Shown piece by piece: positions 7,540 through 13,479 of a stretch of DNA of 42,736 nt. A program made the translations under genes and the position numbers. How positions within the stretch are numbered: position 1 is the stretch's first letter; each line of letters starts with the position of its first letter. Below the pieces are notes generated by a model. That model was not told where the DNA came from. It saw only the letters and a program-made list of their open reading frames with translations, and searched no databases. The stretch comes from a virus: UHGV virus genome UHGV-0389216; one strand, given 5' to 3'.

Positions 7540-8607
7540 TTATTGAAATTTATCTCGGATGAATTGCTGCGATGGTTTTTCAATGAATATATATGACATA
7601 TAGCTAATTGCCATTAATGTAAGCATGAATAAAATGAATACATTGGAGCTGTAAAAAAGATCGCGTCCATAGCCAATCCTGTCAGCTAAATAAACAGCAA
7701 TGATTTGCAAAGGAAAATGTAAAAGATAAGATGAATAACTGATATCACCCAACCATTCAATTTTCTTCCCAAAGTCGTTTCGCATTGCGCTAATTGATAC
7801 AAGGAAAAATATTATGGAGGTAAATCCAAATAAAATAATTGAGAATATATCTGCTACTTGCAGGATAAAAATAACTCCCCACGAGATTAATAGAAAAACA
7901 CAAGCGAAAATAAAAAATGATTTTGTGCCAATATTTTTTATGAACGCAATCGTAATTTTATAGGTCAGACCACCAATAAAGAAAGAGAATGCGCCGATCA
8001 TTATGGGATTGTTAATTTTGAAAAAGTAGTACGACAATGCAACTATTAAAATTGATATGAATGTTGTTTTTGATGTGAACTTGCATAATATAAAAAATAT
8101 CATGTACATAAGTACTTCAATCGACACGGACCATGTCGGTGCGTTGAAGGACCAACCTCGCTCAAATCCCCATGATTGAATCATCAATAAATTCAGAATG
8201 GCATGGTAAATGTCATTCATAGGATAAACAAAAAAATAATTATAACTTTTAAAGAAAATAATTTGTAATATTACCACGACAGCAAATGTAAATATATAAA
8301 GTGGATATAATCTACTGACACGGTTAACTATAAAAGTTTTTGCTGAGGTTTTATTGCTGTGTATATTGTCAGCGTATAGATAAAAAAATATGAATCCAGA
8401 AATCATAAAAAACAATTCGACAGCATATAAACCGTAATGATAAAAGACGGAAAAAAATTCATAAAAAGGTTGGCGGTTTATGATTATGTCAGATGCAGCA
8501 TTCTTTTTCATAAAAAAATGTTGCCAATGCCATAACACAACTGAAAGTGCGGCAAATCCTCTCAGAACATCTAGGGTATATATTCTTTTCCCAAAAACAT
8601 TCGTCAC
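7540..8607 (-). CDS. acyltransferase family 3 membrane protein, O-antigen acetylase-like
   Basis: 355 aa, GTG start. N-terminal LDVLRGFAALSVVLWHWQHFF motif and about 10 hydrophobic helices as in Oac/OafA-type acyltransferases; strongly AT-rich; opposite strand to tail genes. Confidence 0.75.
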   Translation of the reverse strand: MTNVFGKRIYTLDVLRGFAALSVVLWHWQHFFMKKNAASDIIINRQPFYEFFSVFYHYGLYAVELFFMISGFIFFYLYADNIHSNKTSAKTFIVNRVSRLYPLYIFTFAVVVILQIIFFKSYNYFFVYPMNDIYHAILNLLMIQSWGFERGWSFNAPTWSVSIEVLMYMIFFILCKFTSKTTFISILIVALSYYFFKINNPIMIGAFSFFIGGLTYKITIAFIKNIGTKSFFIFACVFLLISWGVIFILQVADIFSIILFGFTSIIFFLVSISAMRNDFGKKIEWLGDISYSSYLLHFPLQIIAVYLADRIGYGRDLFYSSNVFILFMLTLMAISYMSYIFIEKPSQQFIRDKFQ

Positions 8608-8849
8608 AACGAACCTCTTTTAATAAAGTCAAGTGATAATGAAAAGTAAATATTGTAAACGAAAAAACACTGGACTGGAACATATATCTCTGCCTGTAAT
8701 TTAACCAAGATAGTTTTACTAACATAATCATAATTCGTTTATATGAACACATCCCGTTTGCAAGGCATCCATTGTTATGACATTGACGGTAGGTTGCAGC
8801 TTTATATCCGGCTTTTTGCAGCCGCAAAGCTGCTAGCCCCTATGTAATT

Positions 8850-10260
8850 CGCTGACTCACACCTCATTTCCTGTGCGGGCTTTAAGCTCAAAGAATTATT
8901 CAGGTTTAGCGAGTCACGGTCTTACCTGTCGTTGTCATCACTCTGGCCGCCAGAGCAACCTTTCAGTATTCACCCTTTCATTAAAAGTTAATATTTATCG
9001 GTATCAGCGATTAATATGGTCTGATACTGACATGATTCTTGTCGTATTTACTTCCATGAGCTGCTATCGCCCATACTGTTCGTGCCAGTTTGTTTGCCAT
9101 GGCGACGATTGCCACGCTGGCTGGACGACGTTTTTTCAGTTCGGTTATCCACGGACCAGGTTCTTTGGTCAGTAATGCTGCCGCCCTTGCGCCATGAATA
9201 AACAAGGCTCGCAGATATGTATCACCACGTTTGCTTATCCCCAGCAGGCGGATTTTCCCTCCTGAGCCAGTCTGTTTGGGCACCAGACCAACATAAGCCG
9301 CGAACTCTCGCCCTGATTTAAACGCTGATGCTTCCCCCATGGTGGCCACCGCTGCCGTCGCAATAAGTGGCCCAACGCCGGGAATATCCAGCAACCGCTT
9401 ACAGGTTTCATTCTGTTTCGCCACGCTGGTAAGCTGTTTTTCAATATCCTCTATCAGTGAGTCCAGCTCATTCAGCCGGTTGTACTGGTTTTCCAGCACA
9501 GTAATGAGATACGGTGGCAGTCTCTCTTTCATCCGCTCCAGTGCTTCAGGGAACTCCCGCTCCATTGCTGCCCGACCTTTGTGAATTGTTTCACCAAATT
9601 CCAGGAGCGTGCCGTGCAGGGAGTTAATCTGCATGGTGCGGAACTTCACCAGTTGTCTGCGGGAACGATGCAGAACCAGTACCGACTGCTGTTCTTCTGT
9701 TTTGACAGCGATTTCCTTGCCGGGCTGTTGTACTGCCATCCAGATAGCCCGGGCATCCATAACATCGTTTTTATTACCCATGACGAACGCTTTAACGAAG
9801 CGGGCCTGCAACAACCGGACTTTATGACCCAGCTTTGTCAGTTCACGTGCCCAGTGCTGCGAGCCTCCACAGGCCTCCATACCAATCAGGCAGGGTTCCC
9901 GATTACAGAAGAACATCAGAAAATCCTGACGACGCAACTGCTTATCAATCACTTCACCTGTGTGCTCGTCGATGAAGTGAACCTGAATGACATGTTTTGC
10001 GATATCAACGCCAACCGGTGTATATTTCATTTGTGGAGTCTCCAGTCTGAAGGAGCTTTATGCATCCCGTATTGGGCACTATGATGCCGGAAATCTGCGA
10101 GGCTCCACACCTTCCTGTATTTCCCTTCATCTATCACTGTGCACCTTACTTAATGGGGGGGATGTGTTCATTACATTTCATGTATACCAGATGAAAGTGC
10201 ATGTTCTATGAAACAGGGTTTTGCCTGGAGTTTGAAGGGTTTTAAAGATTATACCTGTTT
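8850..10260 (-). mobile_element. IS110-family insertion sequence (boundaries approximate)
   Basis: Contains a single IS110-type transposase ORF with about 160 bp 3' and about 230 bp 5' non-coding flank. Exact ends not determinable by eye. Confidence 0.5.
9011..10030 (-). CDS. IS110-family transposase (DEDD-type)
   Basis: 339 aa starting MKYTPVGVDIAKHVIQVHFIDEHTGEV with ...GMEACGG...NDVMDARA..., the N-terminal DEDD fold pattern of IS110/IS1111 transposases; C-terminal domain follows. Confidence 0.85.
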   Translation of the reverse strand: MKYTPVGVDIAKHVIQVHFIDEHTGEVIDKQLRRQDFLMFFCNREPCLIGMEACGGSQHWARELTKLGHKVRLLQARFVKAFVMGNKNDVMDARAIWMAVQQPGKEIAVKTEEQQSVLVLHRSRRQLVKFRTMQINSLHGTLLEFGETIHKGRAAMEREFPEALERMKERLPPYLITVLENQYNRLNELDSLIEDIEKQLTSVAKQNETCKRLLDIPGVGPLIATAAVATMGEASAFKSGREFAAYVGLVPKQTGSGGKIRLLGISKRGDTYLRALFIHGARAAALLTKEPGPWITELKKRRPASVAIVAMANKLARTVWAIAAHGSKYDKNHVSIRPY

Positions 10261-10628
10261 AATCTGCTACCCATGTTTTTTGATATTATCCACCGCACAC
10301 GATACCGGATGCCAGGTAAACTGATTTGCTGGCACAAAGTCGCTGAGAATTCTTTACCAACAATATATTACCACATCTTTTCCCGCACAGTTTCGGCAAC
10401 AGAATCAGCGGGCGGCGGTCATCAATATTCACTAGACATTGATCTGCCGTACTATCTGACCTGTATTTTGCTGAGACTGCTTATTTCCAGTTTTTACTAG
10501 TGCTGTACTGGTACTGCCCAATCATGATTGGTGGGGGCGGAGTTGAGACCGCAGCCACGTCGTATGCAAGAACGTGCCACGGCTGGCTGATAAGCTTGTA
10601 AAAATCTTGAACAGGGAGTGGAGCATTT

Positions 10629-11276
10629 CTATGAAGCTAATTTGTTTAATTTCATTTGTAGCGACTTTACTTCTTGGTCGATAATGTTGAATCCCTTATT
10701 GACTGCATCTCTTAGCTCTGCATCAATATTTTTTATCCCTTGAGCATAATCTACCATTACATCTATTTTTGCATCATGTAATCTTTTATACATGGTTTTA
10801 TCTTTGTTATTGTCAGCCATACCAATAAGGATTTTTTCATAATCCTCAATGAGTTTGTTGTTTCCTTTAAATGATTGTATTAATGACCGTGAATATGTGT
10901 AGATATTAATTATTGAGTCTCTGGCAGAATCATTTAGTTTTGCAATGACATTCGCATTTTGCTCATAGAATGTGAAATTATCATCCCCTACAGGGAAAGT
11001 GAGAATTAACATCTGTCCGGGTTTGATATTATCAATGTGTGTTTTCATCCTTTTATTATATAAATTGATTAGGGTGAAAACTTCTCCCTTAACACCTTTT
11101 AATACTGAAAGTTGCAATTCAAGGGATTCTCTTTCTGTCTCTACTTTAGACAGCTTAGCTTGTTGGGTAACTCCTTTTAGGGTAAACCATCCGCCAATAA
11201 GAGTACCAACTAGAGCAGTGAGGGAGGAGGATAACCATCCAGGAATGCTATTTAAAAGATTACTAAATTCACTCAT
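10629..11276 (-). CDS. hypothetical membrane-anchored coiled-coil protein
   Basis: 215 aa; N-terminal hydrophobic helix (LSSSLTALVGTLIGGWFTL) then Lys/Glu-rich helical region; AT-rich; no family recognised. Confidence 0.45.
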   Translation of the reverse strand: MSEFSNLLNSIPGWLSSSLTALVGTLIGGWFTLKGVTQQAKLSKVETERESLELQLSVLKGVKGEVFTLINLYNKRMKTHIDNIKPGQMLILTFPVGDDNFTFYEQNANVIAKLNDSARDSIINIYTYSRSLIQSFKGNNKLIEDYEKILIGMADNNKDKTMYKRLHDAKIDVMVDYAQGIKNIDAELRDAVNKGFNIIDQEVKSLQMKLNKLAS

Positions 11277-11334
11277 TATAAGTACTCGCTAATATTGAAC
11301 GATATATATATCAAATTATTATGAAACTCGTCAG

Positions 11335-11613
11335 CTACTGGAGAAGGCTACCTGAACTTCGAGCTATTCCTGCATCCATATAGTTGATGGTCTTCTGGAG
11401 CTCTTCGATTAGGGCAACAGCTTTTGCTCGAGAAATGCATATTAGTTGATCCGGAAATTCTTGTAAGGGCCAGTTTGGTATACAGGCCATGTTATCAGTG
11501 AAGGATGCAGACAAGTAAACTTCATTGGTAACCAGAGAATAGCTTACCTCAAAATTGGTGAGTTCCGGCAAACTGCTAACGTTTGACTCTTTTCTGCGCA
11601 TAATATTATCCAT
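11335..11613 (-). CDS. hypothetical protein (start uncertain)
   Basis: Open frame runs to 11778, but the first 55 codons translate the tandem 12-mer repeat (LLNVLLNVLL). ATG at 11613 (MDNIMRRK...) is proposed as start; no clear SD. Confidence 0.35.
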   Translation of the reverse strand: MDNIMRRKESNVSSLPELTNFEVSYSLVTNEVYLSASFTDNMACIPNWPLQEFPDQLICISRAKAVALIEELQKTINYMDAGIARSSGSLLQ

Positions 11614-11750
11614 GACTGTAATTATATACAGGTGATGGTCTTCAATTTCGAAGAGGGAGTCAAGGGGAGTCTCAAATGAACCGTTATAGAAAGGGGGGGA
11701 TCTTTGTGTTGCTGAACTTATGCAAAATTTTTCGCACCATAAATCCAACA

Positions 11751-11782
11751 ACACATTCAATAACACATTCAATAACACATTA
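11751..11782. repeat. tandem direct repeat, 12-bp unit ACACATTCAATA (2.7 copies)
   Basis: ACACATTCAATA ACACATTCAATA ACACATTA read directly, in the AT-rich region upstream of int. Confidence 0.7.
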
Positions 11783-12081
11783 CCGTATCATCATGAAAAT
11801 AAATATATTTTTATTTAATTTCACACATATCACAATTAATACAGCGTTTAGTAATTAGTAAAGACATTTCAATGGATTACCGTTAAATCATTTTAAAATC
11901 AGTAAGTTGTATCGAGTTTGTATGCTTTACTGTCATTAACTTACTGTATGTTGATCCAGTGTATTTAACCTTGATAAACTCAGTCCAGCAACACAAAACC
12001 GCAACACATTGCATTTTGTCCCGTAGAAAAGACTTGTATGTGTGAGCTTGTTTTCTGCGCCTACGCAGATAAGGATTGAGA

Positions 12082-13479
12082 ATGCCGCGCACTGTAACAC
12101 ATAATCCGGATAGCCCCAATAATGACGATGTTTTAGCCGCATCTGAAAAATGGGACGCCTGTAAACCCCCCTATACCAGCGCACACATGAAAATCTGTGT
12201 TGCTGCCGCCAAAATCATCCTCGCTGCTTCCGGCGTGGCTCGCCGTTCCAAATACGAAAAAGAGAACTATCTCCGTATCGATTTCAGCAAAGCCGGTAAG
12301 GTTACATTTTACGCCGAGTTTCCAAAAAAGATGGGCCTCAAGGGTAAAAAGCTCGGCGAGTGGCCGGAGCTCGCTATCCAGCTGGCGCGCGAAAAAGCGC
12401 TAGGTATGGCTGACTGTGGCCTGCGGGCAGAGTCCGTACATGCAGCGCTGGAAATGTACCGGGATGACCTCAAAGCCAAAGTCGCCCGGCAGAAGCTGAG
12501 CCCGGACAGTTTCACAACCTACGGGGTGCGTATCGACCGGATTAAAGCAACGTTCGGCGAGCGCGAGGTGTTCAGCGACGTAACATACAATCGGCTGGTG
12601 GAAGTGCTGGACGAGTGGATCGCTACTCGCTCGAACAATAACGCCCTGGAGTTGTTTGCCGAGCTCCGTCGGTTCTGGAAGTTCTGCGCACCTACTCTTT
12701 GCAACGGCCGCAATGTTGCCGCCAGTCTGCCAGATGATTATGTTTCCTCCCGCGTACAGAAACCTACCCCCACACGGCTTTTTACCGATATTGAATCAAT
12801 CGCCCGACTCTGGCTCAATGTTGCTGCCTGCACCTCTGTACACCAGAAGAATGCTGTTCGCTTCATGATCATCACTGGCGTTCGTCCGATTAATGTCCAT
12901 AACCTGCGCTGGGACTACGTTCACGAGGAGGCTGGTGAAATTGTTTATCCGGAAGGGGTTATCGGCATGCGAGGGGCTATGAAAACACAAAAGGCTTTCC
13001 GCCTGCCGATAACGCCTGAGATCCGGCGGATTATCGACGAGCAGAAAGCCTGGCGTGATTCAGTTCCTGAGTGCAACAGGGATTATGTATTTTTGCAGCC
13101 ACGTGATCCAATGCAGCCATTTTCAAAACGATCACTGGATAAGCTGGTGAAAACATACAGCCCGGACGGGGCTGTAAAAGGAATAAAACATGATGGGACT
13201 GTTAAAGGGAAAGACGGTGCATTTAATACGATGTGCCGTAAATTCCTTAAGAGCAATGTTATTGCCTTGATGAAGGAAAGAGGCTATTCCCGATCAGACC
13301 GAAGGGAAATCAGCCTCCTTTGCCTTCACCACTCCAGTAAGTCAGATGACCCGATGGCAGAACATTACGACTTTTCTGATGAGATTTTACAGGAAGAGAT
13401 TGCGTTAAAGCGCGAAGCTTTCGAGGCTCACGAGCGGAGCATACTTGCGCAGGTGGCATTGCTACGGCGGCGAGGTTAA
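12082..13479 (+). CDS. int: tyrosine-type site-specific integrase
   Basis: ATG 12082 preceded by AAGGA. Contains ...MIITGVRPINVHNLRW... and C-terminal ...LCLHHSSKSD...AEHY consistent with R/H/Y catalytic boxes; adjacent convergent AlpA/Xis-like gene. Confidence 0.7.
   Translation: MPRTVTHNPDSPNNDDVLAASEKWDACKPPYTSAHMKICVAAAKIILAASGVARRSKYEKENYLRIDFSKAGKVTFYAEFPKKMGLKGKKLGEWPELAIQLAREKALGMADCGLRAESVHAALEMYRDDLKAKVARQKLSPDSFTTYGVRIDRIKATFGEREVFSDVTYNRLVEVLDEWIATRSNNNALELFAELRRFWKFCAPTLCNGRNVAASLPDDYVSSRVQKPTPTRLFTDIESIARLWLNVAACTSVHQKNAVRFMIITGVRPINVHNLRWDYVHEEAGEIVYPEGVIGMRGAMKTQKAFRLPITPEIRRIIDEQKAWRDSVPECNRDYVFLQPRDPMQPFSKRSLDKLVKTYSPDGAVKGIKHDGTVKGKDGAFNTMCRKFLKSNVIALMKERGYSRSDRREISLLCLHHSSKSDDPMAEHYDFSDEILQEEIALKREAFEAHERSILAQVALLRRRG

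What the first reader, a model, noticed from the sequence alone, without database searches (positions are those of the whole stretch)
8850..10260. IS110-family element inside the phage cargo region; flanking non-coding DNA may encode its guide (bridge/seek) RNA
A complete 339-aa DEDD-type IS110-family transposase is flanked by about 230 bp of non-coding DNA on its 5' side (10031-10260) and about 160 bp on its 3' side (8850-9010). IS110/IS1111 elements are known to encode a structured non-coding RNA in one of these flanks that programs target and donor recognition. The only ORFs in these flanks are short, overlapping and unconvincing, consistent with RNA rather than protein. The element may have inserted into, and possibly inactivated, a former cargo gene.
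Basis: partly seen in the sequence, partly recalled or inferred. Interest (0 to 1): 0.55.

Follow-up and report, generated by a model that had tools for sequence, protein, structure and literature searches.

The report
ISEc66 insertion sequence with its guide RNA
This is an intact copy of a catalogued jumping gene (ISEc66, a close relative of the experimentally studied ISEc11) sitting between two genes of a phage. It carries the known kind of guide RNA downstream of its transposase gene, so the finding is real but ordinary.

Summary
The 339-aa DEDD transposase ORF (9011-10030, minus strand) is real. It is 99.4% identical to ISEc66 and 94% to TnpEc11, whose seekRNA has been shown experimentally. 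The element spans about 8738-10178 (1,441 bp with an AA core at each end; 1,439 bp net insert). It has 13-bp subterminal inverted repeats, which places it in the IS1111 group.

The guide RNA lies only in the 3' non-coding region (about 8792-8960). Nothing comparable lies in the 149-nt 5' region.

In 49 distinct relatives the RNA folds into a closing helix plus two stem-loops. 98.6% of cells are paired and 11 pairs show compensatory changes. Its four loop segments match the right target, the left target plus core, the left end and the right end. Across relatives they co-vary with the flanks and ends (0 of 20,000 permutations reach the observed match).

Empty sites in related E. coli prophages show an intergenic insertion at TACATG-AA-CGAATTATGA, a near-cognate target. 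No gene was disrupted.

Durrant et al. already list ISEc66 in the ISEc11 cluster with a right-end bridge RNA. This is already known and of low interest. One side observation: this clade inserts preferentially between Shine-Dalgarno-like sequences and ATG.

The parts
8738..10178 (-). Whole ISEc66 copy (IS1111 group of the IS110 family), counted with an AA core at each end (10178-10177 and 8739-8738). Net inserted DNA is 1,439 bp. Ends are uncertain by 1-2 nt because the core is shared with the target.
   Evidence: 98.6-98.8% identity to annotated ISEc66 copies. Junctions compared at four sites. Empty phage site TATACATG-AA-CGAATTATGA. 17 differences from the RM14721 copy.
9011..10030 (-). Transposase gene, 339 aa. 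By position, the catalytic residues are D9, E52, D89 and D92, and the motif G248-L-x-P-x4-S256-G257 is present.
   Evidence: ORF. Pfam PF01548 and PF02371. 337/339 identical to ISEc66 Tnp. 319/339 identical to TnpEc11. Catalytic residues are assigned by analogy with the motifs in PMC11187229, not tested.
10159..10171 (-). Left subterminal inverted repeat, ATGAACACATCCC.
   Evidence: Read from the sequence. It is the reverse complement of 8743-8755.
8743..8755 (-). Right subterminal inverted repeat, GGGATGTGTTCAT.
   Evidence: Conserved in 68 related loci.
8792..8960 (-). seekRNA / bridge RNA, delimited by the closing helix GGUUGC (8955-8960) paired with GCAACC (8792-8797).
   Evidence: RNAalifold consensus on 49 distinct relatives. 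98.6% of cells paired, 11 compensatory pairs, 0/500 shuffles reach the observed values, slid controls 38% or less. The only significant covariance-model hit in the window is 8789-8964 at 180.8 bits, though the window's own sequence is in that model. Homologous to the ISEc11 NCR given in the supplement of PMC11187229.
8856..8913 (-). Target-binding stem-loop: stem CUCGC/GUGAG plus CCU/AGG, and an inner hairpin at 8877-8889 (GAGC/GCCC, with an A.C mismatch).
   Evidence: All five pairs of the CUCGC/GUGAG stem show compensatory changes.
8890..8900 (-). 5' target guide AAUAAUUCUUU, complementary to the top strand of the right target (ideal AA-GAATTAT).
   Evidence: Matches 8 of 9 positions in the flanks of three ISEc66 sites. 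Equivalent to the ISEc11 'T' match CAGUAUUUU for target AAAATACTG.
8865..8875 (-). 3' target guide CACAGGAAAUG, identical to the top strand of left target + AA core + the first bases of the left end.
   Evidence: 5-7 of 7 matches at three ISEc66 sites. Across the family, cognate sites score 5.33/7 against 2.28 for non-cognate, with 0/20,000 permutations reaching the observed value.
8801..8848 (-). Donor-binding stem-loop: 5' guide AUUACAU (8842-8848, complementary to the left end ATGTAAT), stem GGCU.GCAG/CUGC..AGCC (8810-8838), and 3' guide AUAUAAA (8801-8807, identical to the right end ATATAA plus core).
   Evidence: Both guides co-vary with the left and right ends in 22 distinct combinations, with 0/20,000 permutations each. 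The stem has 3 compensatory pairs.
8758..8763 (-). TTGCAA, a candidate -35 box. Joining the ends as a circle (CATATA-AA-ATGTAAT) would place it 16 nt upstream of TAAAAT.
   Evidence: Inferred from the sequence and from the junction deduced. A junction promoter is reported for ISEc11 in PMC11187229. No internal minus-strand promoter was predicted.
10033..10108 (-). 5' non-coding region helix (10095-10108 paired with 10033-10045) that covers the transposase Shine-Dalgarno GGAG. It is not a guide RNA.
   Evidence: Weak consensus fold of -2.86 kcal/mol with 4 pairs showing compensatory changes. The single-sequence fold is no better than shuffles, z = -0.23.

Best explanation
The region is an intact, probably active copy of ISEc66. 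ISEc66 belongs to the IS1111 group of the IS110 family and is a natural retargeted sibling of ISEc11.

Its 3' non-coding region encodes a seekRNA / bridge RNA of about 170 nt. The proposed mechanism follows ISEc11 and IS621. The DEDD transposase binds this RNA. Two internal-loop segments of the first stem-loop pair with the two strands of the target: one is complementary to the right target's top strand, and the other is identical to left target + AA core. Two segments of the second stem-loop pair in the same way with the element's own left and right ends. The element leaves as a circle whose joined ends would create a promoter (TTGCAA-16-TAAAAT). It recombines at the AA core without a target duplication.

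Shown here: the identity of the element, its ends and empty site, the conserved RNA structure, and the guide-to-flank and guide-to-end correspondence.

Inferred from ISEc11 and IS621 experiments: RNA expression, binding to the transposase, the circle and the junction promoter.

In this phage the IS landed in an intergenic spacer 130 bp upstream of an acyltransferase gene, at a near-cognate site. There is one mismatch in the left target, and the right target is displaced by one base.
For: - Pfam DEDD and Transposase_20 domains.
- 99.4% protein identity to ISEc66 and 94% to TnpEc11.
- 13-bp subterminal repeats, and a 3' NCR longer than the 5' NCR.
- The ISEc11 NCR from PMC11187229 aligns throughout, and the differences cluster in the two guide segments.
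- Structure: 98.6% of cells paired, 11 compensatory pairs, 0/500 shuffles.
- Target guides match cognate flanks at 5.33/7 and 6.61/9, against 2.28 and 3.73 for non-cognate, with 0/20,000 permutations.
- Donor guides co-vary with the left and right ends, 0/20,000.
- Three empty sites define the AA core and show no duplication.
- 15 of the 17 differences from the reference lie in tnp, yet only 2 change an amino acid.
- Durrant et al. list cluster 'ISEc11;ISEc66;ISSso1' as IS1111 with the bridge RNA in the right end.
Against: - No expression data exist for this copy, and no internal promoter is predicted.
- Rfam 15 has no matching family.
- The inner hairpin of the target loop carries an A.C mismatch in ISEc66 only.
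- The phage target fits the guides imperfectly: one left-target mismatch and a 1-nt register shift on the right.
- One base is missing just inside the left repeat compared with the reference copies.
Confidence: 0.93

Rival explanations
1. The guide RNA is encoded in the 5' flank (upstream of the transposase gene), as in IS110-group elements such as IS621, or in both flanks.
For: A few IS1111 relatives are reported to have an upstream or a double NCR (PMC11187229).
Against: Only 149 nt of that flank belong to the IS. Its fold is no better than shuffles, z = -0.23. The consensus fold is -2.86 kcal/mol and is a single helix over the ribosome-binding site. None of the segments matching flanks or ends lie there. 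All four are in the 3' region.
Confidence: 0.02
2. The conserved 3' region acts only as DNA (transposase-binding sites or end sequences), and no RNA is involved.
For: There is no expression evidence for this copy, and no internal promoter is predicted.
Against: Eleven helix positions keep pairing through changes on both sides. A double-stranded DNA site would not require that. For the 94%-identical ISEc11, RNAs of 82 and 154 nt from this region co-purify with the transposase, complement a deletion of the NCR in trans, and can be reprogrammed (PMC11187229).
Confidence: 0.03
3. The copy is an inactive relic in the phage.
For: It shows a one-base loss next to the left repeat, an A.C mismatch in the RNA hairpin and two amino-acid changes. 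It sits at an imperfect target.
Against: The ORF, both repeats and all four guides are intact. The A.C mismatch is shared with the ISEc66 copies of strain RM14721, which holds at least three copies at different sites. The changes in tnp are mostly synonymous.
Confidence: 0.12
4. The IS interrupted a former cargo gene of the phage.
For: An 80-codon ORF starts at the ATG just right of the insertion.
Against: The uninterrupted site in two E. coli prophages lies in an unannotated spacer of about 580 bp between the acyltransferase gene and the 215-aa ORF. The 80-codon ORF overlaps the start of the acyltransferase gene in another frame and is not annotated in the two related prophages examined.
Confidence: 0.03

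Closest known systems
ISEc66 (ISfinder entry; PGAP name 'IS110-like element ISEc66 family transposase')
   Same: 98.6-98.8% DNA identity over the full length and 337/339 identical residues. The guide segments and ends are identical.
   Different: 17 nucleotide differences, including a 1-nt loss next to the left repeat and one change in the apical loop of the donor stem-loop. The location is new: no complete E. coli genome or INPHARED phage in the collections searched has it at this site.
ISEc11 and its seekRNA (Siddiquee et al. 2024, PMC11187229)
   Same: 94% identical transposase of the same length. Same subterminal repeats and the same 3' NCR architecture. The order of guides is the same: the top-strand match lies 5' of the bottom-strand match.
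   Different: The two target guides differ (AAUAAUUCUUU and CACAGGAAAUG against ACAGUAUUUU and CGUGAAAAU). The preferred target is therefore about CACAGG-AA-GAATTAT instead of GTGAAAATACTG. This is natural retargeting of the kind the paper describes for ISEc11 and ISXne4.
IS621 bridge RNA (Durrant et al. 2024, PMC11208160; Hiraizumi et al. 2024, PMC11208158)
   Same: One RNA has a target-binding and a donor-binding internal loop. Each loop reads both strands around a 2-nt core. The guide extends past the core into the partner DNA, which I interpret as handshake-like.
   Different: The RNA is in the right end, downstream of the gene, not in the left end. The repeats are long (13 bp) and subterminal. 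The strand order of the guides is reversed. The core is AA, not CT. A closing helix encloses both loops.
IS900 / IS901 / IS902 / IS116 (actinobacterial IS110-group elements said to insert between the ribosome-binding site and the start codon; recalled from memory, not checked here)
   Same: Most members of this clade sit between a Shine-Dalgarno-like sequence and an ATG 7-9 nt downstream, in the orientation of the gene.
   Different: A different subgroup (IS1111-type with a 3' RNA) in Gamma- and Betaproteobacteria. The preference here can be read directly from the guide loops.

Membership tests
IS110 family, IS1111 group | DEDD (RuvC-like) N-terminal transposase domain | tested here: met
   PF01548, E = 3.4e-11, residues 6-144.
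IS110 family, IS1111 group | C-terminal PF02371 domain with the GL-P----S/T-G motif | tested here: met
   PF02371, E = 7.3e-22. G248-L-V-P-K-Q-T-G-S256-G257 read from the translation. The motif is as defined in PMC11187229.
IS110 family, IS1111 group | Subterminal inverted repeats of 7-17 bp, set in from both tips | tested here: met
   13 bp, ATGAACACATCCC / GGGATGTGTTCAT, set in 8 nt and 4 nt from the ends as first delimited (8739-10179). The length range is from PMC11208160.
IS110 family, IS1111 group | The longer non-coding region lies downstream of the transposase gene | tested here: met
   About 272 nt downstream against 149 nt upstream.
IS110 family, IS1111 group | Site- and orientation-specific insertion without a target duplication | tested here: met
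   Three occupied/empty pairs (phage, yhdW upstream, plasmid) share CA(G/T)G-A(A/G)-...ATTATGA. Only the 2-nt core is present at both junctions.
IS110 family, IS1111 group | Circular intermediate with a promoter formed at the joined ends | not testable with these tools
   The sequence predicts TTGCAA-16 nt-TAAAAT at the deduced junction. This is shown experimentally only for ISEc11.
seekRNA / bridge RNA | Conserved structured RNA in the long non-coding end | tested here: met
   29 pairs, 98.6% of cells paired, 11 compensatory pairs, 0/500 shuffles, slid controls 38% or less.
seekRNA / bridge RNA | [quoted passage not shown] | tested here: met
   The positive control ISEc11 reproduces the published target GTGAAAATACTG.
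seekRNA / bridge RNA | Second loop complementary to the element's own ends (donor recognition) | tested here: met
   AUUACAU pairs with the left end ATGTAAT, and AUAUAA equals the right end. Both co-vary across 22 combinations.
seekRNA / bridge RNA | The RNA is expressed, binds the transposase and is required for transposition | not testable with these tools
   Shown for ISEc11 (PMC11187229), not for this copy.
Rfam families | Match to a curated covariance model | tested here: not met
   No match with E below 0.6 in 8000-11500. No Rfam 15 family reached threshold, so this does not count against the RNA.

The most novel reading that the evidence does not exclude
The ISEc11/ISEc66-like clade of IS1111 elements may be specialised for translation-initiation regions. 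Its variable left-target guides mostly spell Shine-Dalgarno-like sequences. An ATG(A) lies 5-6 nt beyond the core in 50 of 57 independent sites. The G of that ATG is not paired by the RNA. The ATGA mirrors the ATGAAC that starts the left subterminal repeat in the donor, so the protein may read it directly. Such elements would cut a gene's ribosome-binding site away from its start codon in an RNA-programmed way. The phage copy would be a near-cognate, bulge-tolerant off-target event.
Probability: 0.4. Interest if true: 0.4.

Novelty: already known. Interest (0 to 1): 0.18.

Why it matters
It matters little beyond correct annotation. The phage carries an RNA-guided IS that is already catalogued. 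The IS is a close sibling of the element on which seekRNAs were demonstrated.

The practical gains are these:
- exact ends, core and guide segments for ISEc66, with a predicted preferred target of about CACAGG-AA-GAATTAT;
- a documented natural retargeting within 6% protein divergence;
- an example of a near-cognate insertion with a shifted half-site;
- the finding that the phage's acyltransferase gene was not disrupted, although it is now separated from upstream DNA by 1.44 kb.

The clade-wide preference for sites between a Shine-Dalgarno-like sequence and an ATG could interest people who study IS110 target choice.

Tried and rejected
- Rfam search at a permissive threshold over 8000-11500: only chance-level hits.
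- 5' flank as the RNA source: rejected.
- Internal promoter for the RNA: none predicted on the minus strand.
- Related phages in INPHARED lacking the IS: none share this accessory region. Only tail genes and a 46-bp piece match. Empty sites were therefore taken from E. coli prophages.
- My first end assignment (8739-10179) was shifted by one base once the empty sites showed that G10179 belongs to the target and A8738 is the second core base.
- A fixed register for the right-hand guide did not fit all relatives, so offsets 0-2 were allowed in the permutation test.
- A first regex extraction of the donor guides failed and was redone from alignment columns.
- The idea that the ATG next to the phage insertion starts a real gene was not supported.
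- IMG/VR was scanned for the same phage or IS: only relatives of 94% identity or less, with other guides.

Full report
**Observation**

The window holds a complete 339-aa ORF at 9011-10030 on the minus strand. It carries the two Pfam domains of IS110-family transposases: PF01548 (DEDD_Tnp_IS110) and PF02371 (Transposase_20). The flanks contain only short overlapping ORFs. The core of the observation therefore holds. The coordinates of the element and of its non-coding flanks do not.

**Identity and ends**

- Megablast against complete E. coli genomes gives 98.6-98.8% identity to copies annotated 'IS110-like element ISEc66 family transposase'.
- The protein is 337/339 identical to that transposase.
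- It is 319/339 (94%) identical to the transposase of ISEc11 (locus L089). ISEc11 is the element on which Siddiquee et al. demonstrated seekRNAs (PMC11187229).
- Comparing junctions at four insertion sites shows a left end GAAATGTA-ATGAACACATCCC and a right end GGGATGTGTTCAT-ATAA. These are 13-bp subterminal inverted repeats, the hallmark of the IS1111 group.

**Empty sites and the core**

- Related prophages in E. coli JNE23-001 and IAI1 have the uninterrupted sequence TATACATG-AA-CGAATTATGA.
- The two ISEc66 sites of strain RM14721 have empty counterparts CTCACAGG-AA-GCATTATG (upstream of yhdW) and GATACAGG-AG-GAATTATG (a plasmid).
- Together these define a 2-nt core (AA) present at both junctions and no other duplication.
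- The element including both cores is 8738-10178 (1,441 bp). The net insert is 1,439 bp.
- The 5' non-coding part is thus 149 nt and the 3' part about 272 nt. This is the IS1111 arrangement.

**The RNA**

- The ISEc11 non-coding region printed in the supplement of PMC11187229 aligns along its whole length with the window's 3' region. The differences are concentrated in two short segments.
- A genome-wide scan returned 80 related loci from Enterobacterales and Burkholderiales. Further copies came from E. coli records.
- From 49 distinct 3' regions I built alignment A3.
- RNAalifold predicts a closing helix (GGUUGC/GCAACC), a small hairpin, a first stem-loop (CUCGC/GUGAG, CCU/AGG, inner hairpin GAGC/GCUC) and a second stem-loop (GGCC/GGCC, GCAG/CUGC).
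- Counting pairs on that structure gives 98.6% of cells paired and 11 pairs with changes on both sides. No shuffle out of 500 reaches the observed values for four of the five measures (1 of 500 for pair types). At most 38% of cells pair when the partners are slid.
- A covariance model built from A3 finds one significant site in the whole window, 8789-8964 on the minus strand. The window's own sequence is in the model, so this shows only that there is no second copy.
- Rfam 15 has no matching family.

**Guides**

The unpaired segments of the two stem-loops carry the specificity.

- First loop, 5' segment: AAUAAUUCUUU (8890-8900) is the reverse complement of the right target.
- First loop, 3' segment: CACAGGAAAUG (8865-8875) equals left target + AA core + the first bases of the left end.
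- As a control, the same two columns in ISEc11 read ACAGUAUUUU and CGUGAAAAU. These reproduce its published target GTGAAAATACTG.
- Across 36 distinct guide pairs, cognate flanks match 5.33/7 (left) and 6.61/9 (right). Non-cognate flanks match 2.28 and 3.73. None of 20,000 permutations reaches the observed sums.
- Second loop: AUUACAU (8842-8848) is complementary to the left end ATGTAAT. AUAUAAA (8801-8807) equals the right end.
- Across the family these co-vary with the ends. Examples are ATGAGAT, ATAAGAT and ATGTCAT on the left, and ATATAG, ATACAG, ATACAT and ATAGAG on the right. Again 0 of 20,000 permutations reach the observed value.

This is the bridge-RNA layout of a target loop plus a donor loop. 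The strand order is the one Siddiquee et al. report for IS1111 types. The short 82-nt seekRNA of ISEc11 probably corresponds to the first stem-loop and the 154-nt form to both. That mapping is my inference.

**The 5' flank**

The 149-nt 5' region folds no better than shuffled sequence (z = -0.23). Its consensus fold is weak at -2.86 kcal/mol. The fold is a single helix that pairs 10095-10108 with 10033-10045 and covers the transposase Shine-Dalgarno sequence. It is not a guide RNA. Bases 10180-10260 are phage DNA.

**Mechanism**

What is shown here: the element's identity, its ends, the core, the RNA structure and the four-way guide correspondence.

What is inferred from ISEc11 and IS621 work: the RNA is made, binds the transposase, and directs recombination between a circular form and the target.

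The junction deduced from the empty sites is CATATA-AA-ATGTAAT. It would place TTGCAA 16 nt upstream of TAAAAT. This fits the junction promoter reported for ISEc11. No internal minus-strand promoter is predicted, in line with the paper's remark that none is seen.

**State of this copy**

- It differs from the RM14721 copy at 17 positions. Fifteen are in the gene, with only two amino-acid changes (V14 and L67). One is in an apical RNA loop, and one is a missing base next to the left repeat.
- The inner hairpin of the target loop has an A.C mismatch. ISEc66 copies share this mismatch, and the other 47 relatives do not have it.
- Strain RM14721 carries at least three ISEc66 copies at different sites, so the mismatch seems to be tolerated.

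**Effect on the phage**

- The neighbourhood is: tail fibre, tail-fibre assembly, an Acyl_transf_3 gene (7540-8607, minus), the IS, a 215-aa ORF, a 147-aa ORF, then an integrase (12076-13479). The 'cargo region' description is therefore fair.
- The insertion lies in an unannotated spacer 130 bp upstream of the acyltransferase start, in the same orientation. No gene is interrupted.
- The site is near-cognate. The left target is ACATG where the guide reads ACAGG. The right target GAATTAT is displaced by one base (an extra C) relative to the two other ISEc66 sites.
- Recent IS621 work describes insertion at sites that match only half of the bridge RNA (bioRxiv 10.64898/2026.08.31.748434). Whether that applies here is untested.
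- No complete E. coli genome and no INPHARED phage in the collections has the IS at this position.

**Novelty**

ISEc66 is catalogued. Durrant et al. list the cluster 'ISEc11;ISEc66;ISSso1' as IS1111-type with the bridge RNA in the right end. ISEc11 has direct experimental support. This is an already-known kind of element and a known element. The only new points are this location and the explicit reading of ISEc66's guides.

**Side observations**

1. Among 57 unique sites of this clade, 50 have an ATG (mostly ATGA) starting 4-15 nt (mostly 8-10) after the conserved TCATA, against 19% by chance. Thirty-five have AGG/GGA/GAG at the left junction, against 14% by chance. Many enterobacterial sites are true gene starts: yhdW, a plasmid ORF, a DNA methylase and a DUF4942 gene. 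The G of the ATG is not paired by the RNA. The ATGA sits where the donor has the first bases of its left repeat.
2. A decayed 3' fragment that includes the RNA region lies near yoeA/IS5/cobU in K-12. It scores 62 bits with several broken pairs. The same fragment matches in most of the 3,778 of 5,426 E. coli genomes that gave any hit.
3. IMG/VR contigs carry a 94%-identical relative with yet another guide pair that matches its own flanks.

Noticed in passing
L001-L089 and window 8720-8740 / 10179-10190: Across 57 unique insertion sites of ISEc11/ISEc66-like elements, 50 have an ATG (mostly ATGA) starting 4-15 nt (mostly 8-10) after the conserved right-end TCATA (chance 19%). Thirty-five have a Shine-Dalgarno-like triplet at the left junction (chance 14%). 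Many enterobacterial sites are real gene starts. The clade seems to insert between the ribosome-binding site and the start codon. The ATGA mirrors the first bases of the left subterminal repeat in the donor.
   Followed up: partly
L086 2583-2756 (E. coli K-12 MG1655, between a disrupted TonB-dependent receptor gene and IS5/cobU): A decayed 3' fragment of a related IS that includes the guide-RNA region (69% identity; 62 bits with the family model, several broken pairs). It is unannotated. The same fragment accounts for most of the matches found in 3,778 of 5,426 complete E. coli genomes.
   Followed up: partly
window 10544-10589: A 46-bp stretch containing the palindrome CCAATCATGATTGG matches HK97, HK106 and many Stx-converting phages at 91-95% identity. 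It is the only shared piece in this accessory region. It might be a module boundary or a terminator.
   Followed up: no
window 8877-8889: The inner hairpin of the target-binding loop reads GAGC...GCCC in ISEc66, giving an A.C mismatch. The other 47 distinct relatives keep a standard pair at that position.
   Followed up: partly
window 10033-10045 with 10095-10108: A helix in the 5' non-coding region pairs with the transposase Shine-Dalgarno sequence and shows some compensatory changes in relatives. It may restrain translation.
   Followed up: partly
window 8728-8738 and 10179-10185: The phage target TACATG-AA-CGAATTATGA matches the guides with one left-target mismatch. The right half is displaced by one base relative to the two other ISEc66 sites. 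This is a near-cognate insertion.
   Followed up: yes
L092-L096 (IMG/VR contigs): A relative with a 94%-identical transposase carries different guides (CGCAGUA, and the complement of AAAACCCCAT). It sits at TTTCGCAGTA / AATCCCATGACAG in five viral contigs. This is another natural retargeting.
   Followed up: partly
window 11300-13479; L084: An integrase gene lies at 12076-13479 (+). Related E. coli prophages end just beyond the homologue of the 215-aa ORF, next to yfhH. The phage attachment site therefore probably lies between about 11300 and 12076, and the window is an excised phage genome.
   Followed up: no
window 10172-10176 and relatives: The left end of every relative keeps ATG-NNN-TGA (here ATGTAATGA) directly after the captured Shine-Dalgarno-like target bases. 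It may simply reflect the guide-paired bases plus the repeat, or it may be a start-stop mini-ORF.
   Followed up: no
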